From positions 44,733 to 108,732 of the forward strand of contig CAVUGV010000018.1 in NCBI GenBank assembly GCA_963741065.1: 64,000 bases of DNA. Direction: 5' to 3'. This document shows, one piece after another, positions 1,006 through 62,317 of the stretch (positions are counted from its first letter, which is position 1; each line of letters starts with the position of its first letter). The stretch comes from an uncultured Verrucomicrobiae bacterium. GTDB taxonomy: Bacteria > Verrucomicrobiota > Verrucomicrobiia > Chthoniobacterales > UBA10450. A program made the translations under genes and the position numbers. The notes under the pieces were generated by a model. The model was not told the origin of the DNA. It searched no databases and was given only the letters and a program-made list of their open reading frames with translations.

Positions 1006-1973
1006 ATGCGCATCGTTTTCATCGGCACTGGCGAGATCGGCGTGCCGACGCTGGAAGCGTTGCTGAAATCAGAACACGAGGTTGTGGCCGTGGTCACGCA
1101 ACCCGACAAGCCGGTCGGGCGCGCCCAGCAAATCGAGCCGCCGCCGATAAAGAAAGTATTAACAAGGAACGGCGGTTTCCAAACCGCCGTGGGCATTCGG
1201 CGGCTGGGAAGCCGCCGCTCCCTGAAATCTTGCAACCGGCAAAAATCAGAGACCAACAAGCGATCGAACAGATTCGCGCGTTGGTTCCAGATGTAATTGT
1301 GGTCATGGCCTACGGGCAAATCTTGCCCCGCGACGTTCTGGAAATTCCAAAGATTGCCTGCTTGAATCTGCATGCTTCCCTTCTGCCGCGCTGGCGCGGG
1401 GCGGCGCCAATTCAGGCAGCCGTCGCGGCGGGCGATCAAGAGACCGGCATCACCGTGATGTACATGAATGAAGGACTCGATACCGGCGACATCCTGTTGC
1501 AGCGTACGATCGACATTCTTCCGGCCGATACGGGTGGATTGTTGCACGACCGACTGGCGCAGATTGCGCCCGAAGCGCTGCTCGAATCTTTGCAAATGCT
1601 TGAAAAGAACAGCGCGCCGCGCATTGCGCAGGACAATGCGCAGGCTACGTCGGCTCCGAAATTGAAGCGTGAACATGGGCGAATCGATTGGTCGGAACCG
1701 GCGGAAGTAATCGAGCGAAAAATTCGCGCGTTTAATCCGTGGCCGGGTGCATTCATACAAACTCGGCGATCGAAATCTGAAAATATTTTCTGCATGCGTG
1801 GTGGATCTTAGCGGCCAGCCCGGAGAAATTTTGCGCAGCGAAAAAGAGCTGGTTATTGCGGCTGGTAAAGGCGCGCTTTCTCTGGGCGAAGTTCAACTTG
1901 AAGGAAAGCGGCGAATGAGCGCGGCGGAATTTCTCCGCGGACACGCTGCGATATTGCGCAGCGGATTGATTCC
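1006..1973 (+). CDS. fmt: methionyl-tRNA formyltransferase, frame-disrupted as read (two breaks, no own stop codon)
   Basis: Three consecutive frames give [31 protein letters not shown].., then [37 protein letters not shown].., then [26 protein letters not shown]. Colinear with E. coli Fmt. Breaks at 1174-1217 and about 1760. Confidence 0.85.
1174..1217. repeat. 44-nt double perfect hairpin (CGGCGG..CCGCCG type) inserted inside fmt
   Basis: CGGCGGTTT-CC-AAACCGCCG (1170-1189) and CGGCGGCT-GGGA-AGCCGCCG (1198-1217). Lies exactly between the last Fmt codon of frame 1 (GGC at 1171-1173) and the first of frame 3 (CTC at 1218). Confidence 0.8.
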
Positions 1974-2094
1974 GGCGAGCACAGGCTGCCAGCCTGTCAC
2001 ATCTCGGCAGCTTGCCGAGGCCGGGCAACTGCGATGGACGTTGCCGAATGTTGCCGGCAAGCTGCAGCACTGCAGGCTGGCAGCCTTGCTCCCC
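1974..2094 (+). repeat. family-A palindromic element, copy A1 (MITE/REP-like, about 121 nt)
   Basis: Termini GCGAGCACAGGCTGCCAGCCTGT ... GCAGGCTGGCAGCCTTGCTCCCC are inverted repeats. Internal CGGCAGCTTGCCG / CGGCAAGCTGC palindromes. Same architecture as 9282-9409 and 11652-11781. Confidence 0.85.
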
Positions 2095-2175
2095 AGACAG
2101 CAGAATGCCGTGCGATCCCATCGCATTTTGCTTTCCAAACATGTTCATCTTCTGTTTGATGTTGGTCTGGAGCCC

Positions 2176-2934
2176 ATGCAAAAGGAAACGCCGGCCTATA
2201 AACGCATTGTGCTTAAGCTCAGCGGTGAAGCGATGCAGGAGCGCGGTGGACGCGACAACATATCGCTCGCGGTTGTGCGTGAGATCGCTGAGCGAATAAA
2301 GGAAGTGCGCGATCTGGGGGTGCAAGTCTCCATCGTGATCGGTGGCGGAAACATCTGGCGCGGCCTGGTGGCGTCGCACCGCGGCATGGACCGCACGACT
2401 GCGGATTACATGGGCATGCTCGCTACGGTGATTAACGCGCTGGCATTGCGCAGTGCGCTTGATCAAATCGGGGTTCAGACGCGTGTGCAGACCGCCATCG
2501 ACATGAGAAACGTGGCCGAGCCGTTCATCCTCGGGCGCGCCATTCGACACCTGGAGCTGGGGCGCGTCGTGATTTTTGCCGCCGGCACCGGCAACCCTTA
2601 CTTTTCCACCGACACAACGGCAGCTCTGCGCGCGAGCGAGATTCGCGCCGATGTCATCTTAAAAGCAACCAAGGTTGACGGCGTCTATGATCGCGACCCG
2701 AAGACAGACGCAGGCGCGCGACGCTTCGACCGGCTCACCTTCAGCGAAGCGCTTGCGAAACGTTTGCAGATCATGGACTCGACGGCGTTCAGCCTTTGCA
2801 TGGACAACAAAATACCGATCGTGGTTTTCGACATGAACACGCCCAGCAACATCCGCGATGCCGTTCTGGGTCGTAAAGTTGGCACCGTGGTTTGCGATGA
2901 ACTTCCTTCAGACGTAAAAATTCAGACGCCATGA
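2176..2934 (+). CDS. pyrH: UMP kinase
   Basis: From ATG 2176: [20 protein letters not shown].., [22 protein letters not shown]. The ORF is open upstream through repeat A1 into fmt. Confidence 0.92.
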
Positions 2935-3491
2935 GCAGAGATGACATTCTTCTCGAAGCCGAGATGTCGATGGAAAAAAGCGTCGATTACATGGTGCACG
3001 AGTTTGCTGCCGTGCGCACTGGCAAAGCTTCTCCTGGCCTTGTGGAAAACGTCGATGTTCATGCTTACGGCTCGAACATGAAGCTTAAGCAACTTGCTTT
3101 GATCACCACACCCGAGCCGCGTTTGCTTGTTGTTCAACCGTTTGACGCTGGCACGGTCCCGGACATCGAGAGAGCGCTCAAGGAATCGAAGATCGGCATT
3201 ACGCCTGCGGTTGACGGCAAGATCATTCGGCTGCCCATCCCGGAGCTCTCAGAAGAACGTCGAAAGGAACTGGTGCGTTCGCTGGGCAAAATGGCCGAAG
3301 AAGCCCGTGTGCGTGTGCGCGCAAATCGGCACGCGGCGCTCGACGAAGCAAAGAAGCTGAAGGCCGCCGGTGAACTAACCGAGGACGGCTTGCGCGATGT
3401 TCAGAATGAAGTGCAAAAGCTCACCGATCGCTTCGTCAAATCCATCGACGATCATCTCAAGCACAAGGATGCCGAGGTCATGAAGGTGTGA
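2931..3491 (+). CDS. frr: ribosome recycling factor
   Basis: 186-aa ORF with full-length Frr-like sequence (..[31 protein letters not shown]..). ATGA overlap with pyrH. Confidence 0.95.
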
Positions 3492-3494
3492 CGT

Positions 3495-3527
3495 GAATGA
3501 CGAAATCCGAATGACGAATGTCGAATC
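3495..3527. repeat. tandem AATGACGAA-type word repeats (one arm only)
   Basis: gaatgacgaaatccgaatgacgaatgtcgaatc downstream of frr. Same word as the long hairpin at 39630-39767. Confidence 0.6.
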
Positions 3528-3572
3528 GGCACACCACTCAAGAAAACGACCGCTTATCCGAAAATAGCGTTT

Positions 3573-3944
3573 CTAGACGGCGAAACTTTCGCCGCAGGAG
3601 CAGTGGGCGACGGCGTTGGGATTGGTGACTTTGAACCCGCCTTTTTGCAGGTCTTCGCTGTAATCGAGCACCGAACCGCTAACGAAAAGCGCGCTCTTTG
3701 GATCGACAACCAGCCGAATGTTTTGGGTTGGCACGAGAATGTCCCGCTCCTTCGGGCCATCCACTAAATCCATCACGTATTGCAGGCCTGAGCAGCCGCC
3801 GCCCACCACCTTGAGGCGCAACGCGCCCTCTGGCTTGCCTTTTTCTTCAAGCAGTGACGCTAGCTTACGCGCAGCGTTTTCCGTCACGCTGATCAGGCGC
3901 TCATTGCCGATCTTGTAATTGAGCGGTGGAGATTCAGTGGTCAT
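3573..3944 (-). CDS. HesB/IscA-family iron-sulfur cluster insertion protein
   Basis: 123-aa ORF with GGGCSG motif and C-terminal CSCGESF, typical of IscA/ErpA. Confidence 0.85.
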   Translation of the reverse strand: MTTESPPLNYKIGNERLISVTENAARKLASLLEEKGKPEGALRLKVVGGGCSGLQYVMDLVDGPKERDILVPTQNIRLVVDPKSALFVSGSVLDYSEDLQKGGFKVTNPNAVAHCSCGESFAV

Positions 3945-4450
3945 GGTGTTGCGCTCTGCAGCAACTGAGCAACTTCGTTTTGCACGTTCTCCAGTTCGTC
4001 GAGGCGCAATTCAGGATCGGGCACGACGAACACGTCGCCCGTTGCGCCCTGTTCGTAAATGAGAACGCGGCTCCCGCCATCGCGGGATTCTGTCTTCACC
4101 TGTTTTAAGACGCGTTTGCGTTCGAGCATCGCGGCGAGGACGTAGCAGGCGTTTGCAAGGGGATTATCCGACGCCATCAAACGGCGGAAGAGTTGCTCCG
4201 CATTTTCTTTGGGCACGGGTTCGGCGGGCTTTGGCGGCAACGGTTCGTATCGCGATTTCCAAAATGAAAATGGCCGGATGTTTTCATTCCGGTTTTGCCA
4301 CGCCTCTTCGCTCAAATCCTCGCGCCGGTAGCCATTGGCGTCGTGATAGAGCAGCGTATAAAAATATTCGCCGGGAGTAAACGGCCGCTGCGTCGCGGCG
4401 CAGACGTCTGCGCGATGCTTAATCGCCCATTCGTTTGGCAGAGGGTTCAT
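3941..4450 (-). CDS. hypothetical protein
   Basis: Start taken at MNPLPNEW (ATG 4450), giving an ATGA overlap with the upstream lptF/G-like stop. The longer ORF to 4738 would overlap that gene. No family recognised. Confidence 0.5.
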   Translation of the reverse strand: MNPLPNEWAIKHRADVCAATQRPFTPGEYFYTLLYHDANGYRREDLSEEAWQNRNENIRPFSFWKSRYEPLPPKPAEPVPKENAEQLFRRLMASDNPLANACYVLAAMLERKRVLKQVKTESRDGGSRVLIYEQGATGDVFVVPDPELRLDELENVQNEVAQLLQSATP

Positions 4451-5586
4451 CGCGCAACTATACGCCGCGCGGTGAAAAGATGAAAGCTGGGCGGCTCGCG
4501 ATTGGAGGCCCGCAGATAGAGCAAGTAGAGGCCGATTACCGTGAAAATAATGTTCGGTGTCCACGCAGCGATCCATGCAGGAACGCGGGCTCCTTCGCCC
4601 AGTGCCAGAAAAAGGTGGACCAGAAAGTTCATGGTGAAGACAAGGAGGACTGCTGCGGCAACGCTTGATAGAACGCCACGGCGTGAATAGCCAATTCCAA
4701 GCGGCGCGGCGATACATACCACCACGAGGCACGTCCATGGTAGCGCGAGCCGATACTGCAAATGAGTGCGGAACGGCGCGAGCAGCGTCGCGGGAAAATC
4801 GGAATTGTAATGCAGATACTCCCGCAGCTCAGGCAAGCTCAGGAATTCCGCGCGTTCATTTGCGCTGCCCAGCCGGAACGGGGTTTCGCTCCAGTGCTCG
4901 ATTTTCAGTGAAGGATAAATCTGCTCGTCAACGATATTTCCCGCGTGATCGTAATGAACGACTTTCACATTCTCCAACTCCCAGTTTTTTGTCTCCGGGC
5001 TGTAATTCGCGCGGCTTGCGATATAATTTGTAACGATGTTGTCGTTGGCGTCCTGTTGCAGCACCTGCACGTTATTGAACGTATTGCTGCGCGGAAGGAA
5101 ATTCTGAATGAACCAGGTGCGCGAATCGGTTCGATTGCGGAAAATTTGCCCCTGAATGTAACGACCGGGACGCGACTGCGCTTCGGCGAGAAATGTTTTC
5201 CTCGCTAGTTCCGAGTGTGGCGCAAGCGAATAGTTAAGGGCCATGCTCGCCGCGACTGTGAGCAGCCCCATGCTAATCAACGGCAGCAAAACGCGGGGCA
5301 AACTTACGCCTGCCGTGAGCATGGAAACGATTTCATTCGCACGCGACATGCGACCGAGCGCAAAAAGAAGCGACAACAAGAGCGAGACCGGCAGCAGAAT
5401 GATGAAGACCTGCGGGAGCTGGGTGGCGTAATAGCGAATCACAAGCAGAAGACCTACGTGTTCGTCGATAAACGTCGAAATATTGTCGCTGACGTCGAAG
5501 ATCAGCCAGATCGAGATGAATCCGGCAATGCAGTAAAAGTAAACCTGCAGGAAATTGCGAATGACGTATCGATCGAGGATTCTCAT
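4447..5586 (-). CDS. LptF/LptG-family (YjgP/YjgQ) LPS export permease
   Basis: 379-aa ORF starting MRILDRYVIRNFL.. Multi-TM ends with a central periplasmic domain, as in LptF/LptG. Confidence 0.85.
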   Translation of the reverse strand: MRILDRYVIRNFLQVYFYCIAGFISIWLIFDVSDNISTFIDEHVGLLLVIRYYATQLPQVFIILLPVSLLLSLLFALGRMSRANEIVSMLTAGVSLPRVLLPLISMGLLTVAASMALNYSLAPHSELARKTFLAEAQSRPGRYIQGQIFRNRTDSRTWFIQNFLPRSNTFNNVQVLQQDANDNIVTNYIASRANYSPETKNWELENVKVVHYDHAGNIVDEQIYPSLKIEHWSETPFRLGSANERAEFLSLPELREYLHYNSDFPATLLAPFRTHLQYRLALPWTCLVVVCIAAPLGIGYSRRGVLSSVAAAVLLVFTMNFLVHLFLALGEGARVPAWIAAWTPNIIFTVIGLYLLYLRASNREPPSFHLFTARRIVAR

Positions 5587-5588
5587 TG

Positions 5589-5630
5589 CGATTTTCGAAT
5601 TTCAGCTCGCGATTTACGATTTACAATTGC
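5589..5630. repeat. CGATTTACGATTT-type word repeats
   Basis: cgattttcgaatttcagctcgcgatttacgatttacaattgc immediately upstream of the lptF/G-like start. Confidence 0.45.
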
Positions 5631-5651
5631 CATTTCGGCAACCAAGTGGTT

Positions 5652-5739
5652 GTCATTCCGAGCGAAGCGAGGAATTCTGAACAGTTGTTTTGCGCTGCGA
5701 CCAATAATATCAGAGATGTTTCGCTTCGCTCAACATGAC
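5652..5739. repeat. family-B inverted-repeat element, copy B1 (GTCATyCyGAGCGAAGyGAGG..)
   Basis: Left arm gtcattccgagcgaagcgaggaattc. Right arm gagatgtttcgcttcgctcaacatgac is its imperfect reverse complement. Lies in the divergent lptF/G-dinG intergenic region. Confidence 0.8.
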
Positions 5740-5789
5740 AGAGATGAGATGTCGAAGCAGAGAGCGGTTGAGACGCTGGGCTATTCCAA

Positions 5790-7773
5790 ATGATCGCGTT
5801 AAAAAACAACATCGGCAGCGAATTTGTTGAGCGTGTCCGTACATTCTTTTCTAAAGAGGGGCCGCTCTCCAAAGCGAAGAACTTTGAGTTTCGTCCGCAA
5901 CAGCAGGAAATGGCGGCGAGTGTCGCGAAAGCGCTGGAGGAAGAGCGCCATCTGGTGATTGAAGCGGGAACCGGCGTGGGCAAATCGCTCGCTTATCTCG
6001 CGCCGTCGATCCTTTTCGCACTCGAGCGGCACAAAAAGGCGATCGTTTCCACGCACACAATCAATCTTCAGGAACAACTGCTTTATAAAGACATTCCGAT
6101 TTTAAAAAAAATGCTGCCGGTCGAGTTTGAAGCAGCGTTAATGAAAGGCCGGCAAAATTATCTTTGCCCGCGCCGGCTCGAGCGCGCGTTGCAAAGCTGC
6201 GAAGGAACTTTTCACCGGCCCTGAGGAAAGCGAATTGCGACGCCTTGCCCAATGGGCAAGCACGACCCGTGACGGATCACTCAGCGATTTATCAGTGGAG
6301 CCCGATCCAAAAGTTTGGACGCAAGTTTGCAGCGAAGCGCACATCTGCACCCAGAAAACGTGCGGACAAAATCCGCGCTGTTTTTATCAGCAGGCGCGCA
6401 AACGTTTGCTCGCTGCGGACGTGATCGTGCTCAATCACACGTTGCTGTTCATCTTGCTCGGCTCGCCAGATGCACAGCAAGAACGCGAGAGCGGTTTTCT
6501 TTTTCCGAATGACTTCATCATCTTCGATGAAGCGCACACAGTCGAGCAGGTCGCATCCAAGCAGATCGGTATCGGCGTTTCGCAGTATGGACTGCGATCC
6601 ACGATCCAGCGGCTTTACAATTCGCGGACGCGCAAAGGACTGTTCACTGTAATGCGTGACGCGGAGGGCGTGCGACTCGCGGCGGAACTGATTGATGATG
6701 TTGAGAAATTTTTCGCGGCGGTCGAATCGAGAGCGAATTTTCGCAAAGGACGCGAGTTTCGCGTCCGCGATGTCGATTTTGTTCCGGACACAATCACTGG
6801 CCGGTTGACCGCGCTTCAGGCACGGATCGCCGAAGCGGTGAAACGCGCCGATGACGAAATTTTGAAAGCCGAGCTGCAGGAATACGGCCGGCGGATCCGC
6901 GACGCGCGGGACGGCATCGCCATTTTTCTCGAGCAAAGCGCGCCGGAACACGTTTATTGGGTCGAGCGCACCGGCAAAACGGAGCGGTTCCTCGCGCTCA
7001 ACGCTGCGCCGGTCGATCTTGCCCCGGTGCTACGGCGAATGCTCTTTCGAGACAACTGCTGTTGCGTGATGACCAGCGCCACGCTGGCCGTAGGCCGGCC
7101 CGATCTTGCCTATTTTCGTGAGCGCATCGGCGCGAGCGAGGCGGAACCGTTGCGGCTCGGCAGTCCCTTCAATTTTCAGCGGCAAATGAAAATGTTCGTC
7201 GTCCAAAAAATGCCCGACCCGCGCGACGCCGCTTATCAGAGAGAATTGGAGCGATGGATCGCGCATTTCGTTGAAAAGACCGATGGGTGCGCCTTTGTCC
7301 TTTTCACAAATTACCGCGACATGCAGCACGTCGCAGGCGCGATGCAGAAATTTTTTGTGGAGAAGGGCATGAATCTTCTGATGCAAGGAGCGGACGCGCC
7401 GCGGAGCAAGCTGCTTGAACAATTTAGATCAACGCCGCGTAGTGTACTCTTTGGCACCGATAGTTTTTGGGGCGGCGTGGATGTTCCGGGCGAAGCGCTT
7501 TCGAATGTGATTATCACACGGCTGCCATTTGCCGTGCCCGATCATCCGCTCGTTGAAGCGAAACTCGAGCTGATCGAGGAACGCGGCGGCGATCCATTCA
7601 CCGAATACTCCCTGCCGGAAGCGATCCTGAAACTCCGCCAGGGCGTAGGCCGCCTGATCCGAGCCAAAACTGACCGCGGCATCATCGTTATTCTCGACAA
7701 TCGCATCGTCTCCAGGCCCTACGGCCGCGCCTTCCTGCAGGCGCTGCCAAAATGTCCGGTGGAGATTGTCTAG
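5790..7773 (+). CDS. dinG: DinG/XPD-family ATP-dependent helicase (one frame break near 6195)
   Basis: Walker A AGTGVGKS, DEAH box FDEAHTVE, four-Cys cluster region (C..C..C..C at 6300-6400). Frames join as ..RALQ/AAKELFTGPEESELRRLAQW. Confidence 0.85.
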
Positions 7774-7778
7774 TAAAC

Positions 7779-7792
7779 TGTTCACTTGAACA
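7779..7792. promoter_or_regulatory. candidate LexA (SOS) box TGTTC-N4-GAACA
   Basis: TGTTCACTTGAACA is a perfect palindrome, 22 nt upstream of the imuB-like ORF start. It matches the LexA motif reported for Verrucomicrobia (recalled from the literature) and sits ahead of a classical SOS mutagenesis cassette. Confidence 0.6.
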
Positions 7793-7813
7793 TATAGAGG
7801 AATTTGTCGTAGA

Positions 7814-8800
7814 TTGCCTGCATGGAGGGACTCAATGCAGGCGCAGGAAATCTTCGAGATTCTCCACAAGTGGGGGATCCACACGCTTGGGCAGCTGGCG
7901 GCGTTGGATAAGGAGCAGCTGGAAGCGCGACTTGGCCCGGAAGCAAGCCGAATGTGGGAGCGCGCCAACGGGCGATCCATTCGAGTTCTCAAACTGGTTC
8001 GACCGCCGGAGTCGTTCGAGGAGAGCTTCGAATTCGAGCACGAGATCGAAACAGCCGAGCCGCTCCTTTTCATGCTCCGCCGTTTTCTGGAGCAGCTCAC
8101 GCTGCGGCTGACTGGAATCTATCTCGTAACAAAAGAACTGACGCTGCAAATTACGTTCGCGAATTCACGCCAAGACGAACCCGTCGTGGCGGGCAAACAG
8201 TTTTATGAGCGCGTTTTCAAAATTCCGCAGCCGACTAACGATGTCGATCTTCTCTTTCGCATGCTCCAGACGCACTTGGAGAATTTTCGATCGAAACATC
8301 CGATCGTGGCAGTCGCGCTGAGTGCGCAACCGATTAAACCCGCCAGCGAACAATTCGGATTATTTGAAACGACACTGCGCAATCCGCATCAACTATCGGA
8401 AACGCTCGCGCGTTTGACCGCCCTGCTTGGAAGCGAACGCGTCGGCACGCCAGTCATCGAGGAAACGCATCGGCCAGATGCATTTCGCATGGAACCGTTT
8501 TCGTGGGATGGGCTTCCAGCCCATTCAATCGGCAGGATGCCGATGCCACGTCCAGCTCTGCGAAGATTTCGGCCCGCAGTGTCTGCATCAGTTTTAGTGG
8601 ATGGAGACACCCGGGCGCATCTTTGCAGCGCAGAAATTTGCGGGAAAGTCATCGAGCAACATGGGCCGTATTTGATTTCTGGAAATTGGTGGGGCGAAAA
8701 ATCCTGGGCGCGCGCCGAATGGGATGTGCAGCTGCAGGATGGCGAGCTCGTTCGATGTCCACGAAACGGAGCGAACTTGGGAAATGGACGGCATCTATGA
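7814..8800 (+). CDS. imuB: ImuB-like protein lacking the N-terminal Y-family polymerase-like part
   Basis: 328-aa ORF. ..IHTLGQLAALDKEQLEARLGPEASRMWERANG.. resembles the HhH/little-finger region of ImuB. Directly precedes dnaE2. About 180 N-terminal residues expected from full-length ImuB are absent. Confidence 0.65.
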   Translation: MPAWRDSMQAQEIFEILHKWGIHTLGQLAALDKEQLEARLGPEASRMWERANGRSIRVLKLVRPPESFEESFEFEHEIETAEPLLFMLRRFLEQLTLRLTGIYLVTKELTLQITFANSRQDEPVVAGKQFYERVFKIPQPTNDVDLLFRMLQTHLENFRSKHPIVAVALSAQPIKPASEQFGLFETTLRNPHQLSETLARLTALLGSERVGTPVIEETHRPDAFRMEPFSWDGLPAHSIGRMPMPRPALRRFRPAVSASVLVDGDTRAHLCSAEICGKVIEQHGPYLISGNWWGEKSWARAEWDVQLQDGELVRCPRNGANLGNGRHL

Positions 8801-8831
8801 CTGGAGATCGAAGTCGTCTATGACGAGTCAT

Positions 8832-8859
8832 TTCGGCGGTCAAAGACCGCCGCTACAGC
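8832..8859. repeat. CGGCGG..CCGCCGCTACAG hairpin (REP-like)
   Basis: ttcggcggtcaaagaccgccgctacagc between imuB and dnaE2. Related to the hairpins at 1170-1217 and 12280-12310. Confidence 0.6.
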
Positions 8860-9281
8860 AAAATGCCGATTTGACGCTTCAATCGTTTCAATCGCTTTAA
8901 CTCGGAATCATGTCCTACATCGAGTTACACGCATGCAGCGCCTTTAGTTTTTTGCGCGGCGGCTCTTTCCCCGAGCAATTAGCTGAAGTCGCAGCGGAAT
9001 TGGAAATGCCGGCGATGGCGTTGCTTGATCGCAACGGCGTTTACGGCGCGCAACGATTTTCCGTCGCCGCGCGCGAGCACAACGTGCGCGCGATCATCGG
9101 CTGCGAATTGTCGATGGAAGACGGCAGCATTTTGCCGGTGCTGGTCGAAAATCGCACCGGTTACAAAAATTTGTGCGAACTACTCACCCAGGCGCATTTG
9201 CGCAGCGAAAAAGGAAAATGCGTGGTGCGTTGGGGTGAACTGCCGCAGTTCGCAGAAGGATTGGTAGCGCTTTTGGGATCG

Positions 9282-9409
9282 GGGAGCACAGGCTGCCAGC
9301 CTGTAGCTTCCGGCAGCTTGCCGGACGCCGGGTGCGAGGGCGTGCGCGTGATTCGAAGAGGTTTGCGGCAAGCTGCCGCAAACAACAGGCTGGCAGCCTG
9401 TGCTCCCCA
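9282..9409 (+). repeat. family-A palindromic element, copy A2, translated in frame inside dnaE2
   Basis: GGGGAGCACAGGCTGCCAGCCTGT ... ACAGGCTGGCAGCCTGTGCTCCCC are near-perfect terminal inverted repeats. The host ORF stays open and DnaE2-like on both sides. Confidence 0.85.
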
Positions 9410-11651
9410 GAACGCAGAAGATCGCGCGCGGTTTTTGATTGACGCGTTTGGCCGCGAAAATGTTTTCGTCGAAATTCAGCGGCATTTCATTCGCGGCGAG
9501 GAACGGGTCAATCGCGAACTGATCGATCTAGCGCGTGCACATCGATTGCCGCTTATCGCCACGAACGGCGTGCAATACGCGAAGCCGTACGGACGCGAAG
9601 TGCTGGATGTTTTCACCTGCATTCGCGAACACACGCATCTCGATGCTGCTGGCAAATTGCTGACGCAAAACGCCGAGCGCCATCTGAAGAGCGATCGCGA
9701 AATGCGAGCAATTTTCGCGGATTTGCCGGAAGCAATTGAAAATACATCGCGCCTGGCCGAGCGGCTCACGTTTTCGCTTGAGAATCTCGGTACGAATTTC
9801 CCGAATATCCCGTGCCGGCCGGACACAGCATGGATTCATTTTTGCGCACCATCGTCTGGTTCGGCGCGCAACAACGTTACGCCGCGATCAGCGCAAAAGT
9901 GAAACGCCAGCTCGAGGAAGAACTCGCGCTGATAACGCAAACTCGGGTTCCCCGGCTATTTCCTGATTGTCTGGGACATCGTCAATTTCTGTCGCGAACA
10001 CAACATCATGGTCCAGGGCCGCGGCAGCGCCGCCAACAGCGCAGTTTGTTATTGCCTCGGGATCACGCCGGTTGATCCGGTTGAAAATCATCTCGTCTTC
10101 GAACGATTCCTCAACGAGAGCCGCAAAGGCTGGCCGGATATCGATCTGGATCTTCCCAGCGGCGATCGGCGCGAAGCGGTGATCCAGGAAATTTATCGCC
10201 GCTACGGCAAACACGGCGCGGCGATGACCGCGAACGTGATCAGTTATCGCGGACGCAGCGCCGCGCGCGAGATCGGCAAAGCGCTGAATTTTTCGCCGAG
10301 TATTATCGATCGCTTTTCGCATCTGTTTGCGAACGGCGATTTTCCGCACACGACTCGAATTGGAATCACAGATCGAGCAGGCCGGTTTGCCAAAAATCAT
10401 CCGCGGATGCCGGCATTCATTCGACTGTATCACGCGATCTACGGCTTGCCGCGGCATCTCGGCCAGCATTCCGGCGGCATGATTATCTGTCAGAACAAAC
10501 TGAGCTCATTTGTGCCGCTGGAAAACGCCTCCATGCCGGGCCGCGTCGTCGCGCAATGGGACAAGGACGATTGCGAAGATCTCGGCATCGTGAAAGTCGA
10601 TCTGCTCGGGCTCGGGATGATGTCGGTGATGCAGGATGCGTTTGAGCTTTGCCGTGAACGCGGGCGACCTCTCGATCTGGCTCACATTCCAAAAGATGAC
10701 GCGGCGACTTTCGAGATCATGCAGCACGCCGACACGATCGGCGTTTTTCAAATCGAAAGCCGCGCGCAAATGGCGACGCTGCCGCGGATGAAACCGGAAT
10801 GTTTTTACGACGTCGTGATTGAGGTGGCGATCATTCGCCCGGGGCCAATCCAGGGCGACATGGTGCATCCTTATCTCGCGCGGCGCGCCGGCGAAAAGAG
10901 CCAATCACGTATTTCGACGAACGACTGAAGCCCGTGCTACAGCGCACTCTTGGCGTGCCGTTGTTTCAGGAACAAATGCTCAAGATCGCGATGGTCATGG
11001 CGGATTTTTCCGGCAACGAGGCCGAGGAGTTGCGACGCGCACTGAGTTTTCATCGTTCCGAGGAACGAATGCAAGAAAGTGAGCGTGAAATTGCGCGCGG
11101 CCATGGAGCGAAAAGGCGTCGCGCCGGACAAAATTGAGAAAATCATTCAATCGATCTCGTCGTTTGCGCTTTACGGGTTTCCCGAATCGCACGCGATCAG
11201 TTTCGCCATTCTCGCTTACGGCAGCGCGTATTTGAAAGTGCATCGCGCCGCCGGAATTTTACGCGAGCCTGTTGAACAATCAGCCGATGGGTTTTTACAC
11301 GCCGGCCACGATTGTGAAAGACGCGCAGCGGCATGGGCGTAAAGTGCAAGCCGGTTTGCGTCATGAAGATCGGACTGGCGCTGCAGCGTTGTTGACGACG
11401 ACACAGTTTCGACTGGGGTTTTGCGTCGTGAACGGATTGCGGCAGGAACACGCCGAAGAACTCGTCAGGCAACGGCAAGATCGACAATTTGAGTCGTTGG
11501 AAGATTTCAAGCGGCGAGTTCCTCTGTCGAAAGACGAATTGCGCACACTGGCAGAATTAGGCGCGCTGAATTGTTTTGCCGAACATCGCCGCGCGGCGAT
11601 GTGGAAAGTGGAAGAAACGCTGCATGATGATTTGCTCGATCGCACGACTCC

Positions 11652-11781
11652 GGGGAGCGCAGGCTGCCAGCCTGCAGTTTGCGGCAGCTTGCCGCAAACA
11701 TCTCGCACACGATGCGTGCAAACACCCTGAAGAGCGTTCCGCAAGCTGCTGGACGCGGCAGGCTAGCAGCCTGCGCTCCCC
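11652..11781 (+). repeat. family-A palindromic element, copy A3, inside dnaE2, with in-frame TGA and TAG
   Basis: GGGGAGCGCAGGCTGCCAGCCTGC ... GCAGGCTAGCAGCCTGCGCTCCCC. The flanking dnaE2 segments (11272.. and 11806..) share one frame. Stops at 11728-11730 and 11764-11766 lie inside the element. Confidence 0.85.
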
Positions 11782-12253
11782 AGAAAAGAATCGCCCCTCG
11801 CGCCAATGACCCTATCCGAGCGTGTGCGCGCAGATTACGAAACAATGAATCTGACGACCGGACCGCATCCGATGAAACTGTTGCGCGAAAGTTTGCCGAA
11901 TATTTGGCGCGCGATCGATCTTGTTCACGCGCGCCATGGCTCAACCATTCAGATCGCCGGCAACGTGATTTGCCGTCAGCGTCCCGGCACAGCGAAAGGA
12001 TTTGTTTTCATCAGCCTGGAAGACGAGACCGGCGTTTCAAATGCAATTGTCGAGCCAGATCTGTTCGAACAATTTCGGCTCGTCATTACCGAGGAAGCGT
12101 TTCTGCTCATCGAAGGCGAAGTGCAAAATTCAGACAACGTCGATTTTGATCAAAGCGCGCGACATCAGGCCGCTCGCACACCTGCCCGCAATGCTAGCGA
12201 TGCAGGCGGGCGAACAACTCGTCGGAAGCGAGTCGCACGATTTCCACTAATGT

Positions 12254-12310
12254 TGTAGCCGCTTCGCTGTGCGAAGCGTCGCGCTGCCGCCCACTAGGGC
12301 GGCGGCTACA
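12254..12310. terminator. compound hairpin between convergent dnaE2 and gnd (REP-like, probable bidirectional terminator)
   Basis: TGTAGCCGC ... GCGGCTACA outer stem enclosing cgcttcgc-tgtg-cgaagcg and gccgccc-acta-gggcggc hairpins. Confidence 0.5.
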
Positions 12311-12312
12311 GA

Positions 12313-13804
12313 TTACTCACCCGCGTGATGCGGCTGCGGCGTTTTGGGTTCGGTGGGTTTTTCGGCTGGTTTTTGATCGGACTCGATCCATTCGGTGTGA
12401 AAAACGCCGGGCTTATCGATGCGCTCGTAAGTGTGGGCGCCAAAGAAATCGCGTTGCGCCTGCAGGAGATTCGCCGGCAGACGCGCCGAGCGATAACTAT
12501 CGAAGTAAGCCAGCGACGCAGAAAACGCAGGGGCGGCCACGCCATGTTTGATAGCTGTCGATAACACGCAGACGCCAATTGGGCTGCGCTTTCTTGATGG
12601 CTCTCGTGAAATAGCGATCGAGCAGAAGATTGTGCAGTGCGGGGTCGCGCCGATATGCTTCGACGATCCGGTTGAGAAATTTCGCGCGAATGATGCAGCC
12701 GCCTCGCCAGATGGTGGCGATGTCGCTCAGGTTGAGGTTCCAGTTGTATTCGGTGCTTCCAGAACGCAGAAGCTCCATTCCCTGCGCGTAAGACACAATT
12801 TTCGACGCGTAAAGCGCGTCGCGCACTGCATCGACAAGACGCAGTGCGATCGCCTTTAAACTTCTCGAGCTTCGGTTGCGGCAGAATTTTCGACGCAGCC
12901 ACACGCTCTTCTTTTCGCGAGGAGATAACGCGCGCTTCAACGGCGGCGTTTATCGTTGAAATGACGACAGATTGCCGGATCGCGGATTGAAGTGTCCAGA
13001 TGCCGGTTCCTTTTTGGCCGGCTTTGTCGAGGATCATGTCGACCAGCGGCTTGCCGGTCTCGGGATCGATCTTTCGAAAAATTTGCGGATGTGATTTCGA
13101 TCAGGTAACTGTCGAGCTCGCCTTTATTCCATTCTGCAAAGATCTCGGCAAGTTGCGCGGCGTCCATCTCCAACGACGTCTTTGAGAATGGCATAGGCTT
13201 CGCAGATCAATTGGATATCGCCGTACTCGATGCCGTTGTGCACCATCTTGACGTAATGCCCGGCGCCATCCGGTCCCATGTATCGGCAACACGGCTCGCC
13301 ATCCACTTGCGCGGCGATCTTGCGGAAAATCGGCGCGATGATTTCCCATGACTCACGCGATCCTCCCGGCATGAGCGAAGGACCCTTAAGCGCGCCTTCT
13401 TCGCCGCCGGACACGCCCATGCCGACAAAATGAATTCCTTTGCCCTCTAATTCTTTGTCCGCGCCGCTGTGTGTCGGTGAAACAGCGAATTTCCTCCGTC
13501 GATGATGACATCGCCTTTTTCCAGCAGCGGCGCGAGTTGACCGATCACCGCGTCCACCGGCGCGCCGGCTTTCACCATGATCATCGCTATGCGCGGTTTC
13601 TTAAGCGCCGCCGACGAATTCCTCCATCGTGCGCGTTGGTTGAATGTTTTTTCCCTGGCCGCGGCCGGCAGCGAATTTCTCGGTGACTTCCGTGGTGCGA
13701 TTGAACACCGCGACAGAAAATCCCTTCGATTCCATGTTGAGGACGAGATTTTCGCCCATCACACCCAGGCCGATCAGGCCAATATCACATTGATTGGTTG
13801 TCAT
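12313..13804 (-). pseudogene. gnd: 6-phosphogluconate dehydrogenase (decarboxylating). As read: at least 6 frame changes
   Basis: [23 protein letters not shown].., [19 protein letters not shown].., [18 protein letters not shown].., DKAGQKGTG.W.., [10 protein letters not shown].., [14 protein letters not shown].. are all present but spread over six ORF fragments in different frames. Confidence 0.85.
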
Positions 13805-13865
13805 TTTAGTATCTTCTTTTCTGACTACTTCGGAGAAGACACCACTGTAACGAGCATTAGAGCGC

Positions 13866-14303
13866 ATGGCAAATCTCGTTTGCGAAGTTTTAGTGACTGA
13901 AGCGCCGCTTGAGGCGCCGCCGCAAAATCATCATGGCGATGCAGGAGCAACGGTCGATTTTTGGGGAGTGGTGCGGAGACTTGAAGATGGACGCGAAATC
14001 GAAGGGATCGACTATGAAGCGCATCGGGAAATGGCCGAGCATCAGTTGAGACAAATTGCCGAGCAGGCCGTGGAGAAATTTCGGCTTCAACTTGTTATCA
14101 TTCATCACCGAATCGGATTTATTGCCGTTGGGGAACCATCGCTTTTTGTGCGAGTGGCAAGTCCGCATCGCGGCGAAGCATTTCGAGCCAGTCAATGGAT
14201 AGTGGATGAGTTGAAGAAAAAAGTGCCGATTTGGAAGAAGACCACGATTTACAAGAGACAAACAGCCTCGCACGCGGCCTCGCAGGGCAGCGGCTACAGC
14301 AAG
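13866..14303 (+). CDS. moaE: molybdopterin synthase catalytic subunit MoaE (no stop before pgsA as read)
   Basis: ..GATVDFWGVVR..IEGIDYEAHREMAE..VIIHHRIGFIAVGEPSLFVRVASPHRGEAFRASQWIVDELKKKVPIWKK is colinear with E. coli MoaE. Confidence 0.8.
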
Positions 14304-14883
14304 ATGAACTGGGCGAACCGAATTACTTTGGGCCGCCTCGCGCTGACAGTTCTTTTCGTGGTCGCGGTCAATTCTTCCTGGCAATACGCGCGCACTGCCG
14401 CGCTTGTGATTTTTCTGATCGCAGGCCTGACCGATTTTGTCGATGGAGAAATCGCCCGGCGCTACGGGATCATCACGAATTTTGGCAAATTGATGGATCC
14501 GCTCGTGGACAAAATCATGGTGGCGGCGGCGTTCATTTCGCTCGTGCCTCTTAAAGCCGTGCCGGCATGGGCAGCTACGACGGTGGTGGCGCGAGATTTT
14601 TTGATCACCGGACTGCGTCTGATGGCCAGCGCCAAAGGCCGGATTCTTCCAGCGGAAAGTCTCGGTAAACAGAAAACCTCGTGGCAAATCATCACGATTA
14701 TTTTCTTTCTGGCGCTTCTTTCAATAGTCGAACTGCGATACGCGAGTGAAACATCGACATGGTGGGTGCGGGCCTGGAACGAAGCCGGTCCCGTGCTGGT
14801 GTGGATTACCGTGGCACTGACGATTTATTCCGGGTCTTGGCTTTACCTGGCGAAATCGGGAATTGATTGCGCCAGATCAATAG
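14304..14883 (+). CDS. pgsA: CDP-diacylglycerol--glycerol-3-phosphate 3-phosphatidyltransferase (frame break near 14838; as-read ORF runs to 15008)
   Basis: MNWANRITLGR.., CDP-alcohol phosphotransferase motif DFVDGEIAR..G..G..DP..DK. After a 1-nt shift the C-terminus reads TWRNRELIAPDQ-stop (TAG 14881-14883), identical to the duplicate at 17170-17205. Confidence 0.85.
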
Positions 14884-16983: not shown

Positions 16984-16999
16984 GAGCGGGCAACGGGAA
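16984..16999 (+). repeat. 16-nt copy of the tRNA-Gly(UCC) 3' end plus one flanking nt (att-like core)
   Basis: GAGCGGGCAACGGGAA matches 35382-35397. Fused directly to the pgsA 3' fragment. Confidence 0.65.
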
Positions 17000-17205
17000 A
17001 ACTTCGTGGCAAATCATCACGATTATTTTCTTTCTGGCGTTCCCTGCAAGTGTGGAACTGCGTTACGCCAATGAAACATTTACATGGTGGTACGGCCCTG
17101 GAGCGAAGCCGGTCCCGTGCTGTATGGATTACGATAGTGCTGACGATTTACTCTGGGTTTGGCGTCACCTGGCGCAATCGCGAACTGATCGCGCCCGACC
17201 AATAG
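16996..17205 (+). pseudogene. displaced, decayed duplicate of the pgsA 3' end
   Basis: About 210 nt aligning to 14672-14883. The first 43 nt have 1 mismatch, then roughly 75-80% identity with small indels. Encodes KTSWQIITIIFFLA.. and ..VWITIVLTIYSGFGVTWRNRELIAPDQ-stop in two frames. Confidence 0.75.
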
Positions 17206-28746: not shown

Positions 28747-29055
28747 ATGGCAAAATCCAAAAAGAACAACAACAAAGCGAAGCTCAACCTGACGGTGCGT
28801 GAGGAGCAACGAAACAAACTGGAGCAAATGGCATCTTTAGAGAGCCGTTCCGTCTCCAATCTTATCGAGGTTATGGCCGATGAACGCTGGGAGCGATTGG
28901 TCGAGCAGCAGGGCGTTGCTTACGCTAAAACCGTCGCGGAGGCGATGAACCTCAAACTCGAAATGGACAATCCAGCAGACCGCGAGAAATTGCGCCGAGC
29001 AGTTCTCGAGCTTGTCGCCGGGAGAAAAATGCCAAAGCAAAAACGGAATGGTTGA
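28747..29055 (+). CDS. ribbon-helix-helix (CopG/Arc-like) DNA-binding protein
   Basis: From ATG 28747: MAKSKKNNNKAKLNLTVREEQRNKLEQMASLESRSVSNLIEVM.., a basic tail plus beta-strand and two helices typical of RHH. Paralog at 34584-34900. Confidence 0.6.
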   Translation: MAKSKKNNNKAKLNLTVREEQRNKLEQMASLESRSVSNLIEVMADERWERLVEQQGVAYAKTVAEAMNLKLEMDNPADREKLRRAVLELVAGRKMPKQKRNG

Positions 29056-33241: not shown

Positions 33242-34581
33242 ATGAAAAAACAGGCTAACCCGTCCATTAAGGCGCACCTGCTTTGGAGCGCATTGATCCT
33301 GCTCGCTCTTCTCGCGGTCTGCGCGATTCCATTCACGCTGGCGCAATCCAGCAGTCGCGGGACCAGCAACCAAAGCGTAGCCCAGGCGGCGGCCAAGCCG
33401 AATCTGTCCGCGATCGCGGAGCTGCCGCCTTTGACCAAGTCGATTTCTACGCGGGCGGTTTTAAATCCCGGCGCAGGCGGACCGCAGGCAGCACCGGCTG
33501 TTGATGGAGCGGTTAGGGCCCCCACACTGTCAAGCGGAGCCACCGGCGCGAATCCGGTCGTCCGTACGGGTGAGGTATGTCAGTTCCACGTGCTCATCGT
33601 GTATGCGGATCAACTAGGCCCGCCTACTCAGCTTCAGTCGGAAATCCAGGCCGAACCTAATGTGATCTCGGTTGACCTGTTTGCTGCAACAATCGGCACG
33701 CCCACTCTGGCTCAGCTTCAGCAATACCAGATCGTCGTGCCTTTCAGCGATTCTCCGTTTGCCGACGGAGATACGCTGGGTAACAACCTGGCCGACTACG
33801 TGGATGGCGGAGGCGTGGTCGTCCAGTACGGCTTTAGCTTCTTCGGCCCTGGGCAGGTGCAGGCCCGGCCGGGCGGCGATGGAACCATCTCGGGGTACGG
33901 TATTACTGGCCGATGGCTAAGTGGCAACTACAACCCGTACACCTACTCGACGAACGTGCAATACAATGCATTCTCGCTGGGCACGCATAACGCGGGGCAC
34001 CCGTTGATGGCTGGTGTCACCATGCTCAACAGCAACTATGCAAACATCATAACGCTTGCCGTTGGAGCGACAGAAGTAGCGCAGAACAACCTCGGCAACT
34101 CACTCGTGGCGTACCGGCCGGTGAGCGGCGGGCACACCACTGTGGGCGTCACAGCCTATGTCGGGTTCGCTGCGACGCAGAGCGGAGACTGGGGAAAGGT
34201 GATAGTCAATGCTGGCAACTGGCTGGCTAATTGCCAGGGAGGAAGTCCGACTCCAACGCCGACGGCAACTCACACTCCGACAGCTACCCCAACAGCTACT
34301 CACACGCCCACACCTATTCCAACAGCTACGTTCACGCCCACGCCGACTCCGACGGGAACTCACCCTCCGACAGCAACACCAACAGCTACTCACACGCCCA
34401 CGCCTACTCCAACAACTACAGCCACGCTACAGCTACAGCTACGCATACACCGACAGCTACGCCAACGGCAACGTCAACAGTTACAGCAACGGCGACGCCG
34501 ACACAAACGCCGAGACCAACCACGACACCGAGACAAATCCCGACGCCGAGGCTACGTCCGACACCGTCGCCTCGTCCGTAG
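33242..34581 (+). CDS. secreted protein with C-terminal Pro/Thr-rich tandem repeats (frame break near 34420)
   Basis: Signal peptide [35 protein letters not shown], a globular domain of about 300 aa, then (T/A)-H-T-P-T-(A/P)-T-P-T repeats continuing in a second frame to the stop at 34581. Confidence 0.6.
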
Positions 34582-34627
34582 CGCTAAATCCAAATAGAAC
34601 AAGAACAAAGCGAAGCTCAACCTGACG

Positions 34628-34900
34628 GTGCGTGAGGAGCAACGGAACAAACTGGAACAAATGGCGTCTTTAGAGAACCGTTCCGTCTCCAATCTCATCG
34701 AGGTTATGGCCGATGAACGCTGGGTCCGATTGGCCGATCCCGCAGGCAAGTTGTCAGAGGCACAAAAACAGGAGCTGGCAGAAACGATACTGGAAGCGCA
34801 CAAGGCACTTATTAAGGCGGACGGTAAAAATATTCGCCTCTGTGGGCCCGTTGTCGATTCCTTAAGCCAAGACCCTCATCGCGAGACAACTTCGAAATAA
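34628..34900 (+). CDS. RHH-domain paralog with damaged 5' end
   Basis: ..LNLTVREEQRNKLEQMASLENRSVSNLIEVMADERW.. 34584-34732 is roughly 90% identical by eye to 28751-28899. The ATG is lost and a TAG lies in the N-terminal tail. Only a GTG at 34628 remains. Confidence 0.5.
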   Translation: MREEQRNKLEQMASLENRSVSNLIEVMADERWVRLADPAGKLSEAQKQELAETILEAHKALIKADGKNIRLCGPVVDSLSQDPHRETTSK

Positions 34901-62207: not shown

Positions 62208-62213
62208 ATGCCT

Positions 62214-62299: not shown

Positions 62300-62317
62300 A
62301 CAAAAGTTTGTTGACCG

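What the first reader, a model, noticed from the sequence alone, without database searches (positions are those of the whole stretch)
9282..9409. About 128-nt palindromic element translated in frame inside the DnaE2 PHP domain (RPE-like behaviour)
Copy A2 has near-perfect termini GGGGAGCACAGGCTGCCAGCCTGT / ACAGGCTGGCAGCCTGTGCTCCCC. ORF 8910-9902 stays open through it. The flanks are DnaE2-like on both sides (..FAEGLVALLG | STGCQPVASGSLPDAG..NNRLAACAP | QNAEDRARFLIDAFGRENVFVEIQRH). The element therefore adds about 43 residues to the protein rather than breaking it. This recalls the Rickettsia palindromic elements that colonise ORFs in frame. All three A copies in this window share orientation and translation phase.
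Basis: partly seen in the sequence, partly recalled or inferred. Interest (0 to 1): 0.7.

Follow-up and report, generated by a model that had tools for sequence, protein, structure and literature searches.

The report
Palindromic REPIN repeat translated inside DnaE2
A 128-base palindromic mobile repeat from a soil Verrucomicrobium sits in frame inside the error-prone polymerase gene dnaE2 and adds a floppy loop of about 43 residues; this kind of insertion is already known, but here every relative has an insert at the same spot and the repeat family filling it keeps changing.

Summary
Window 9281-9408 (one base off the reported coordinates) is a 128-nt palindrome lying in frame in the DnaE2 PHP domain.

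It is a REPIN-type repeat. It has two inverted arms, each with a conserved head (TCTGGGGAGC) and two covarying local hairpins. There is no target-site duplication. The family is dispersed and mostly intergenic in soil metagenomes. A roughly 620-nt relative has the same arms flanking a RAYT (Y1/HUH) transposase gene.

More distant DnaE2 proteins lack the insert. An AlphaFold model places it in a disordered surface loop. In about 65 Udaeobacter/Chthoniobacterales species the same site always carries an in-frame, stop-free insert of 9-177 nt. A second site in the linker before the OB domain behaves the same way. The repeat family at the site differs even between close relatives, so it turns over.

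Copy A1 is intergenic in orthologues. Copy A3 has two stop codons in this assembly, which is rich in frameshifts.

Intragenic REPs in DnaE2 genes were reported in 2013, so this is a new member of a known kind. The fixed-site turnover and the RAYT genes nested in frame in recG, alaS and metH appear to be new.

The parts
9281..9408 (.). Copy A2: 128-nt REPIN-type palindromic element, in frame in dnaE2 (encodes about GSTGCQPVASGSLPDAGCEGVRVIRRGLRQAAANNRLAACAP)
   Evidence: (I2)
9281..9327 (+). Left arm: head GGGGAGC (9281-9287), local hairpin HP1 (9288-9304), local hairpin HP2 (9307-9327)
   Evidence: Arm alignment A6 and pair counts: 98.5% of cells paired, 130 double-sided changes against 34.5 in shuffles, 0/500 shuffles as high
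9328..9361 (.). Variable central spacer between the two arms
   Evidence: Not conserved among copies A1-A3 or among metagenomic copies
9362..9408 (-). Right arm (inverted): HP2 (9362-9382), HP1 (9385-9401), head GCTCCCC (9402-9408)
8910..12258 (+). dnaE2 (error-prone DNA polymerase), host gene. In this window it is split into ORFs 8910-9902, 9812-10075, 10008-10928, 10934-11137, 11079-11342, 11272-11730 and 11806-12258, probably by assembly indels
   Evidence: Pfam PHP, DNA_pol3_alpha; source names 'error-prone DNA polymerase'. Orthologues are intact at 1040-1119 aa
11652..11781 (.). Copy A3: 130-nt element of the same family at the second dnaE2 site (linker between the HhH region and the OB-fold domain). 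It has two in-frame stops in this assembly, but the flanks are in the same frame
   Evidence: (I3). The orthologous site is open and in frame in Illumina assemblies
1974..2094 (.). Copy A1: same family, with degenerate termini, between fmt and pyrH. It is intergenic in orthologues
8501..8552 (.). Two small hairpins of another repeat family (related to 62724-62790 and 63952-63976), in frame in the imuB-like gene 7814-8800. The site is hypervariable among orthologues
   Evidence: (D13, I10, I16)

Best explanation
The feature is a non-autonomous REPIN-type repeat. It consists of two inverted REP arms around a variable spacer. It belongs to a family whose full-length relative carries a RAYT (REP-associated Y1/HUH tyrosine transposase) between the same arms.

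Shown:
- An ancestor of the Udaeobacter/Chthoniobacterales clade acquired such an element in a loop of the DnaE2 PHP domain, and another in the linker before the OB domain.
- Only in-frame, stop-free versions are found in these genes.
- The element is read in the phase GGG AGC ... GCT CCC CAG (G-S ... A-P-Q), which is also the reading frame of the RAYT ORFs through their own arms.

Inferred:
- It is translated as a disordered surface insertion of about 43 residues that the polymerase tolerates.
- It is a passenger and not a functional module.
- Mobilisation is by a RAYT acting on single-stranded hairpins, without target duplication.
- The content of the fixed site is replaced repeatedly by whichever REP family is active in the genome. 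The route is either RAYT-catalysed cleavage and rejoining at the conserved CT|GGGGAGC termini, or gene conversion after palindrome-induced breaks.
For: Repeat family:
- There are three copies in the window.
Of the 80 contigs examined, 4 carry the match in dnaE2. About 60 of them carry full palindromic copies of 101-157 nt, and about 80% of those lie in no spanning ORF.
- A peptide profile of the insert hits only hypothetical ORFs of 39-79 aa without Pfam domains.

Anatomy:
- The terminal consensus is tTCTGGGGAGC-HP1-HP2. No target-site duplication appears at any boundary (0-5 matches in 50 elements at any length tested).
- The local hairpins covary: 98.5% of cells are paired, and 130 have changes on both sides against 34.5 in shuffles (0/500 as high).

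RAYT link:
- In L125, L130, L140, L177 and L185 the same arms flank an ORF of about 176 aa.
- That ORF matches Pfam Y1_Tnp at 30.6 bits (cut-off 23) and NCBIfam REP_Tyr_transpos at 77.7 bits (cut-off 80, profile positions 4-145 of 146).
- 372 homologues were found, many named RayT by JGI.
- 94 of the 120 listed read through a GS.. arm in the same phase as the dnaE2 insert.

Insertion rather than ancestral sequence:
- DnaE2 proteins at 39-64% identity have the canonical GLxALxG..G....AL..G....A......L...FG and no element.
- E. coli Pol III alpha leaves query residues 125-182 unaligned.

Tolerated loop:
- The model has mean pLDDT 88.8 and pTM 0.86, with residues 131-156 below 50, between strand 118-122 and helix 169-180.
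- The rest matches the Pol III alpha PHP domain at TM 0.78.

Frame filter:
- In all 65 loci where both flanks could be found, the flanks are in the same frame and the insert has no stop (9-177 nt).
- The DnaE2 ORF is intact at 1040-1119 aa in 25 of 29 loci.

Turnover:
- Most inserts are strong palindromes (dG -80 to -107) with the same head but different subterminal hairpins: families A, B, C and D, plus GTAG-headed elements.
- Species whose flanks are 92-95% identical carry different families.
- The two dnaE2 sites of one genome are more alike (0.85) than the same site in different genomes (0.70); 0 of 10000 permutations reach this.

Precedent: intragenic REPs in DnaE2 and other repair genes were reported in PMC3733652.
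Against: - No RAYT gene lies in the window. The link to a RAYT comes from other metagenomic contigs, not from this genome.
- Copy number per genome is unknown: 3 copies per 64 kb here, and only about 12 non-dnaE2 copies in about 0.9 Mb of flanks around orthologous dnaE2 genes.
- Neither transposition nor translation has been observed.
- The window's own dnaE2 is broken by frameshifts, so in this genome the gene could be dead.
- The NCBIfam score is just below its cut-off.
- Near-universal occupancy of two dnaE2 sites, together with well-kept hairpins, also fits selection for a function.
- The similarity between site 1 and site 2 within a genome could come from linkage and allelic recombination of the whole gene. 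It need not reflect genome-wide homogenisation.
Confidence: 0.78

Rival explanations
1. The palindromes are kept in dnaE2 because they work as a cis-acting nucleic-acid structure. One version is an mRNA or DNA hairpin that slows transcription, translation or replication and so limits expression of a mutagenic polymerase. Another is a hairpin that makes the gene a recombination or deletion switch. On this reading the encoded peptide is incidental.
For: Two sites in dnaE2, and one in the adjacent imuB-like gene, are occupied in nearly every species examined, while intergenic sites nearby are occupied only sporadically. Arms stay 80-100% complementary although the flanks have diverged 10-25%. The local hairpins covary. 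PMC3733652 argues that the enrichment of REPs in repair genes is unlikely to be fortuitous.
Against: The same elements are mostly intergenic elsewhere. The sequence at the site is replaced by unrelated families. Species with a 9-nt or 21-nt remnant (L065, L031, L037, L047) or decayed inserts (L053, L049) still have open reading frames at the site; L031 and L047 keep full-length ORFs. No Rfam family matches. Retention also follows from the fact that imprecise loss would destroy the gene.
Confidence: 0.12
2. In the genome the window comes from, dnaE2 is a decaying pseudogene. On this reading the open frame through A2 says nothing about translation.
For: There are at least five frame changes between 8910 and 12258, and two in-frame stops in A3. 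The public gene call for this sequence is the truncated 330-aa product (P0001).
Against: The housekeeping genes fmt and gnd in the same window are fragmented in the same way. The closest assemblies with the same frameshift position are long-read 'contig_N' MAGs. The A3 stops disappear if one A is removed from an AAAA run and one further indel is assumed. Orthologues from Illumina assemblies are intact.
Confidence: 0.1
3. The segment is ordinary lineage-specific protein sequence (an ancestral loop) that happens to be palindromic. It is not a mobile element.
For: All close orthologues have extra residues at this position, bounded by G-S ... A-P-Q.
Against: The identical DNA family occurs in at least 120 unrelated genomic contexts. 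Orthologues carry unrelated palindromes at the site. The same arms flank a transposase gene.
Confidence: 0.02
4. It is a classical MITE, mobilised by a DDE transposase of a parent insertion sequence.
For: It has terminal inverted repeats, is about 130 nt long and is dispersed.
Against: There is no target-site duplication. The only coding relative with the same ends is a Y1/HUH RAYT. The arms are self-folding hairpins and not plain TIRs.
Confidence: 0.03

Closest known systems
Intragenic REPs in replication and repair genes (Di Nocera et al. 2013, BMC Genomics 14:522, PMC3733652)
   Same: REP dimers lie in frame in known genes. DnaE2 is named explicitly among the REP-tagged proteins. A Verrucomicrobium (Opitutus terrae) has the most intragenic GTAG REPs. 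Some ORFs carry insertions at two sites. The paper proposes that the insertions sit in flexible linkers or loops.
   Different: Family A has the head TCTGGGGAGC, not a GTAG or CGTC tag, and belongs to a different order (Chthoniobacterales). That paper does not describe fixed-site occupancy across dozens of species, family turnover at a site, or RAYT genes nested in frame in host genes.
REPIN-RAYT systems (Bertels and Rainey 2011, PMC3116915; bioRxiv 10.1101/2021.07.10.451892)
   Same: Two inverted REP sequences, each with its own short palindrome, flank a variable spacer in an element of about 100-130 nt. A RAYT gene is flanked by the same REPs. Several families coexist, each with its own RAYT. 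Inheritance is vertical and persistence is long.
   Different: REPINs are described as almost exclusively extragenic. This copy, its twin at site 2, a metH copy and several RAYT units are inside ORFs and in frame. In this lineage the RAYT ORFs read through their own arms.
Rickettsia palindromic elements, RPE (Ogata et al. 2000, Science 290:347; summarised in PMC10969869)
   Same: Palindromic repeats of about 100-150 bp are inserted in frame in unrelated genes. They add 30-50 residues at positions judged compatible with the protein fold.
   Different: The sequences are unrelated and the phylum is different. In Rickettsia nearly half of the copies of some families are genic; here about 8% of sampled copies are. 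RPEs have no known associated RAYT.
IS200/IS605-family Y1 (HUH) transposition
   Same: Recognition of subterminal hairpins, no target-site duplication, and a Y1_Tnp catalytic domain in the coding relative.
   Different: The element is a symmetric palindrome instead of having distinct left and right ends. No activity has been shown. RAYTs are not known to move themselves.
Bacterial MITEs that give in-frame fusions (ERIC, BOX, Nezha and others; reviewed in PMC10969869)
   Same: Small non-autonomous repeats that occasionally lie in ORFs and are read through.
   Different: There is no target-site duplication and no DDE parent element.

Membership tests
REPIN (REP doublet forming a hairpin) | [quoted passage not shown] | tested here: met
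   Arms 9281-9327 and 9362-9408 around spacer 9328-9361. Each arm has two local hairpins with covariation. Length is 128 nt.
REPIN (REP doublet forming a hairpin) | Association with a RAYT gene flanked by the same REP sequence | tested here: inconclusive
   Met for the family: in five metagenomic contigs the family-A arms flank a Y1_Tnp / REP_Tyr_transpos ORF. Not shown for the genome of this window, since no RAYT lies in the 64 kb.
REPIN (REP doublet forming a hairpin) | Many copies per genome (typically tens to hundreds) | tested here: inconclusive
   3 copies in 64 kb. No complete genome could be scanned.
REPIN (REP doublet forming a hairpin) | Extragenic location | tested here: not met
   This copy and A3 are inside dnaE2. 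The family as a whole is about 80% outside spanning ORFs.
GTAG- or CGTC-tagged REP superfamilies | Conserved GTAG (or CGTC) tetranucleotide at one end of the stem-loop | tested here: not met
   The family-A head is tTCTGGGGAGC. GTAG-headed elements (TTGTAGGG...) do occupy the same dnaE2 site in L067, L069, L071, L077, L079 and probably L082 (by its peptide).
Rickettsia palindromic elements (RPE) | Sequence membership in one of the RPE families of Rickettsia | not tested
   No RPE consensus was at hand. The host is a Verrucomicrobium and the family consensus was derived only from soil contigs. The resemblance is one of behaviour.
Rickettsia palindromic elements (RPE) | In-frame insertion that adds a peptide at a structurally permissive position | tested here: met
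MITE (DDE-type) | Target-site duplication flanking terminal inverted repeats | tested here: not met
   No direct repeat of 2-8 nt above chance at six boundary definitions in 50 elements.
DnaE2 / ImuC error-prone polymerase (host gene) | PHP, Pol III alpha, HhH and OB domain order, with an adjacent imuB-like Y-family gene | tested here: met
   Pfam domains of orthologues and their neighbours. PHP fold at TM 0.78 to Pol III alpha.

The most novel reading that the evidence does not exclude
In Udaeobacter and its relatives the REPIN/RAYT system may be adapted to live inside host reading frames.

- The REP arms are coding parts of the RAYT ORF, read in the G-S ... A-C-A-P-Q phase.
- RAYT units sit in frame within recG, alaS and metH, and could be expressed as part of, or from within, those host proteins.
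- dnaE2 (two sites), metH and perhaps the imuB-like gene carry fixed in-frame docking sites.
- The cassettes at those sites would be exchanged between competing REP families by RAYT-catalysed cleavage and rejoining at the conserved CT|GGGGAGC termini.

This would be a site-specific, frame-preserving cassette exchange in essential and repair genes.
Probability: 0.25. Interest if true: 0.8.

Novelty: new member of a known kind. Interest (0 to 1): 0.5.

Why it matters
In-frame palindromic repeats are among the few ways bacteria gain new peptide segments in conserved proteins, and few lineages outside Rickettsia have been described in detail. Udaeobacter is one of the most abundant soil bacterial groups. 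This case offers a natural series of more than 60 species in which one loop of one protein has been refilled many times without losing the frame. That allows three tests:
- whether REPIN populations homogenise orthologous sites;
- whether RAYTs can exchange cassettes;
- whether REP insertions in SOS mutagenesis genes (imuB, dnaE2) and in recG are tolerated passengers or modulators of repair.

It also matters for annotation. These elements generate many spurious small ORFs, and they coincide with frameshift-prone stretches in long-read MAGs.

Tried and rejected
- **Source contig:** looking up the exact 330-aa product returned no contig and no accession.
- **Rfam:** only two chance matches below the gathering scores were found across 1800-12400.
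- **Peptide profile of the insert:** the search returned only short hypothetical ORFs and not even the DnaE2 proteins. It could not be used to list decorated genes.
- **Counting frameshifts with tblastn:** using an intact orthologue against the window merged the high-scoring pairs and was uninformative. ORF coordinates were used instead.
- **Stop-codon avoidance as the reason for the constant phase:** rejected, because all three phases are stop-free in 47-65% of intergenic copies.
- **Intein, intron or translational bypass:** no evidence. The insert is open and in frame in Illumina orthologues, so no removal is needed.
- **E. coli RayT query:** the sequence was recalled from memory and used only as a lead. 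The hits were then verified with Pfam and NCBIfam.
- **Literature:** a search for Udaeobacter with 'palindromic' gave nothing. A search for RAYT with recG gave nothing relevant.

Full report
**1. The observation**

The sequence is as described, shifted by one base. GGGGAGC occupies 9281-9287 and GCTCCCC occupies 9402-9408, which gives a 128-nt element. Its 43-nt arms are 93% complementary (I2). As a single strand it folds at -98.7 kcal/mol, against -61.5 +/- 3.6 for shuffles (z = -10.2). The subterminal palindrome ACAGGCTGSCAGCCTGT occurs four times in the window, where none is expected. ORF 8910-9902 reads through the element with no stop. Two more copies of the family lie at about 1974-2094 (A1) and 11652-11781 (A3).

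**2. Host gene and quality of the assembly**

The flanks are DnaE2. The closest proteins carry the Pfam PHP and DNA_pol3_alpha domains, and their sources name them error-prone DNA polymerase from Candidatus Udaeobacter, Chthoniobacterales or Verrucomicrobiota. Upstream lie a DinG-like helicase gene and an imuB-like gene.

In this window dnaE2 is cut into seven ORFs by at least five frame changes. The genes fmt and gnd are fragmented in the same way. The nearest assemblies that share the frameshift at LENLGYEF are long-read 'contig_N' MAGs. I therefore read the breaks as assembly indels. A true pseudogene in this strain is not excluded.

In 25 of 29 orthologous loci with full coverage, the DnaE2 ORF is intact at 1040-1119 aa and reads through both elements.

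**3. An insertion into a permissive loop**

DnaE2 proteins at 39-64% identity show the canonical segment GLxALxG..G....AL..G....A......L...FG at this position and are about 29 residues shorter. E. coli Pol III alpha aligns to query residues 3-124 and 183-288 and leaves the insert region unmatched.

An AlphaFold model built from 65 sequences has mean pLDDT 88.8 and pTM 0.86. Only residues 131-156 fall below 50, and they lie between strand 118-122 and helix 169-180. The model superposes on the Pol III alpha PHP domain with TM 0.78. The insert is therefore predicted to be a disordered surface excursion.

**4. A dispersed repeat, mostly intergenic**

Of the first 80 contigs, only four carry the match in dnaE2.

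About 60 full palindromic copies of 101-157 nt were recovered. Their lengths are random modulo 3 (15, 14 and 22 in the three classes), and about 80% are not inside a spanning ORF. One clear genic copy lies in frame in the MetH linker before the activation domain. A profile of the encoded peptide finds only hypothetical ORFs of 39-79 aa.

**5. Anatomy of the element**

The terminal consensus is tTCTGGGGAGC, followed by hairpin HP1 (RCAGGCT-GCC-AGCCTGY), then hairpin HP2 (nnnnCGGCA-GCT-TGCCGnnnn).

On 55 arms, 98.5% of cells in these two local helices are paired. There are 130 cells with changes on both sides, against 34.5 in shuffles (0/500 as high), and four HP2 pairs show all four Watson-Crick pair types. 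HP1 is partly fixed by the search pattern; HP2 is not.

There is no target-site duplication at any boundary definition. No Rfam family matches.

**6. Link to a transposase**

In five metagenomic contigs the same arms, about 620 nt apart, enclose an ORF of about 176 aa. The ORF matches Pfam Y1_Tnp at 30.6 bits (cut-off 23). It also matches NCBIfam 'REP-associated tyrosine transposase' at 77.7 bits (cut-off 80) over profile positions 4-145 of 146.

In the contigs read in full, the whole unit lies in frame inside recG, between the motif I region and IIVGTHAL. The search found 372 homologues, many named RayT by JGI and several from Chthoniobacterales. Most are ORFs of 200-220 aa that read through their own arms, as M..GSARVSRVG...core...TRDACATQ*. 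Some are embedded in alaS (family-C arms) or in metH.

So family A is a REPIN-type derivative of a RAYT unit. The G-S ... A-C-A-P-Q phase used in dnaE2 is the RAYT's own frame.

**7. The dnaE2 sites across species**

I fetched 80 orthologous loci from species-representative genomes.

- **Frame:** in all 65 loci where both flanks could be located, the flanks are in the same frame and the insert has no stop. Its length ranges from 9 to 177 nt.
- **Structure:** most inserts are strong palindromes (dG -80 to -107) with the same head. Their subterminal hairpins differ: ACAGGCTGCCAGCCTGT, GCACGCTTGCAGCGTGC, GCGGGCGCCTCGCCCGC and GCACGCGTCTCGCGTGC. About six species carry GTAG-headed elements instead.
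- **Remnants:** L065 keeps only 9 nt, and L031, L037 and L047 keep 21 nt.
- **Second site:** the linker before the OB domain is likewise occupied, in phase and open in Illumina assemblies.
- **Density:** a strict scan of 1.18 Mb found 72 elements, about 60 of them at these two sites.

**8. Turnover at the site**

The family at site 1 differs between species whose flanks are 92-95% identical, for example L013 against L047 and the window against L015. The fraction of species pairs sharing a family falls to the background level of 0.2 below 87% flank identity. In a neighbour-joining tree of the flanks the families are interleaved, and a basal clade is uniformly family A.

Within a genome, the ends of the site-1 and site-2 elements are 85% alike. 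The same site in different genomes is 70% alike, and 0 of 10000 permutations reach the observed difference.

I infer repeated, frame-preserving replacement of the cassette. Linkage of the two sites, together with allelic recombination of the whole gene, remains an alternative explanation for the within-genome similarity.

**9.

- Orthologous A1 copies begin 3-6 nt after the fmt stop codon. The window's fmt-to-pyrH read-through is a frame artefact.
- A3 has stops at 11728 and 11761 in this assembly. Removing one A from the AAAA run after CCCCAG restores ...ACAPQKESPLAPMTLSERV as in orthologues, and one more indel is needed inside the element.
- Stop avoidance does not explain the constant phase, because intergenic copies are stop-free in 47-65% of cases in every phase.

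**10. Comparison with what is known, and verdict**

Di Nocera et al. 2013 (PMC3733652) reported REPs inside coding regions and an enrichment in replication and repair genes. They named DnaE2 explicitly and found the largest number of intragenic GTAG REPs in the Verrucomicrobium Opitutus terrae. RPEs are the classical in-frame case. REPINs are defined as extragenic doublets duplicated by RAYTs.

The feature is thus a new member of a known kind. I did not find the following described in the held literature:
- fixed-site occupancy across a whole clade, with family turnover;
- RAYT ORFs that read through their own arms;
- RAYT units nested in frame in recG, alaS and metH.

Function beyond tolerated passenger is not shown.

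Noticed in passing
L177 1025-1647; also L125, L130, L140, L185: A RAYT (Y1_Tnp / REP_Tyr_transpos) ORF flanked by family-A arms lies in frame inside recG, between the motif I region and IIVGTHAL. This gives continuous ORFs of 729-919 aa (some cut by contig ends) with RecG wedge, DEAD, Y1_Tnp, Helicase_C and RecG_dom3_C domains. Whether RecG is made as one polypeptide carrying the transposase domain is unknown.
   Followed up: partly
P0333, P0335, P0350 (alaS); P0402, P0345 (metH): RAYT homologues with arms of other REP families are embedded in frame in alanyl-tRNA synthetase fragments (family-C arms, GSAGASPAVSRASRDT) and methionine synthase fragments (GSARASRAG arms). Most stand-alone RAYT ORFs of this lineage read through their own REP arms at both ends.
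   Followed up: partly
L117 339-439: A 101-nt family-A element is in frame in MetH, in the linker just before the Met_synt_B12 activation domain. It uses the same G-S ... A-C-A-P-Q phase as in dnaE2.
   Followed up: partly
window 8501-8552 (imuB-like ORF 7814-8800): Two small hairpins related to the repeats at 62724-62790 and 63952-63976 are read in frame (..DGLPAHSIGRMPMPRP..). Orthologues carry unrelated segments of different length at the same place, so this is another hypervariable in-frame repeat site in the mutagenesis cassette.
   Followed up: partly
window 1006-2934, 8910-12258, 12306-13900: fmt, dnaE2 and gnd are each split into several overlapping ORFs by frame changes. The frameshift at LENLG(Y)EF (about 9790) recurs in two other assemblies (P0021; P0023 = L001/L019, a long-read 'contig_N' MAG), which suggests a systematic sequencing error.
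   Followed up: partly
L067, L069, L071, L077, L079, L082 (dnaE2 site 1): In these species the same loop carries GTAG-headed REP doublets of about 60 nt (TTGTAGGG + hairpin ... CCCTACAA) instead of GGGGAGC-headed elements. They are also in frame.
   Followed up: no
P0122, P0176, P0166 (distant DnaE2 proteins): Distant DnaE2 proteins have other odd inserts at the same PHP loop, for example ..SPFDSAQGDGSNMVQGKNGREIPAG.. in P0176. They also have inserts at the pre-OB linker, for example ..FAVRNAECGMDNIQSNSALRTPHS.. in P0166. Both positions may be permissive hot spots in several phyla.
   Followed up: no
window 50704-50744, 56453-56493, 57493-57533, 63019-63059; 62213-62300: Other short repeat families occur in the window: CCCGCCTTCGCCAAGGCTACGGCGGGCAAG in four copies, and an 88-nt palindrome TGTCATGCTGAGCGAAGTCGAAGC.../...GCTCGGAATGACA.
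   Followed up: no
window 34247-34532; 28750-28904 vs 34583-34737; 14672-14765 vs 16997-17090: There is a 12/30-nt periodic ACNGCNAC tandem array, probably a low-complexity coding repeat. There is a 155-nt direct repeat at 93% identity, 5.8 kb apart. There is also a 94-nt repeat at 86% identity between two CDP-alcohol phosphatidyltransferase-like paralogues.
   Followed up: no
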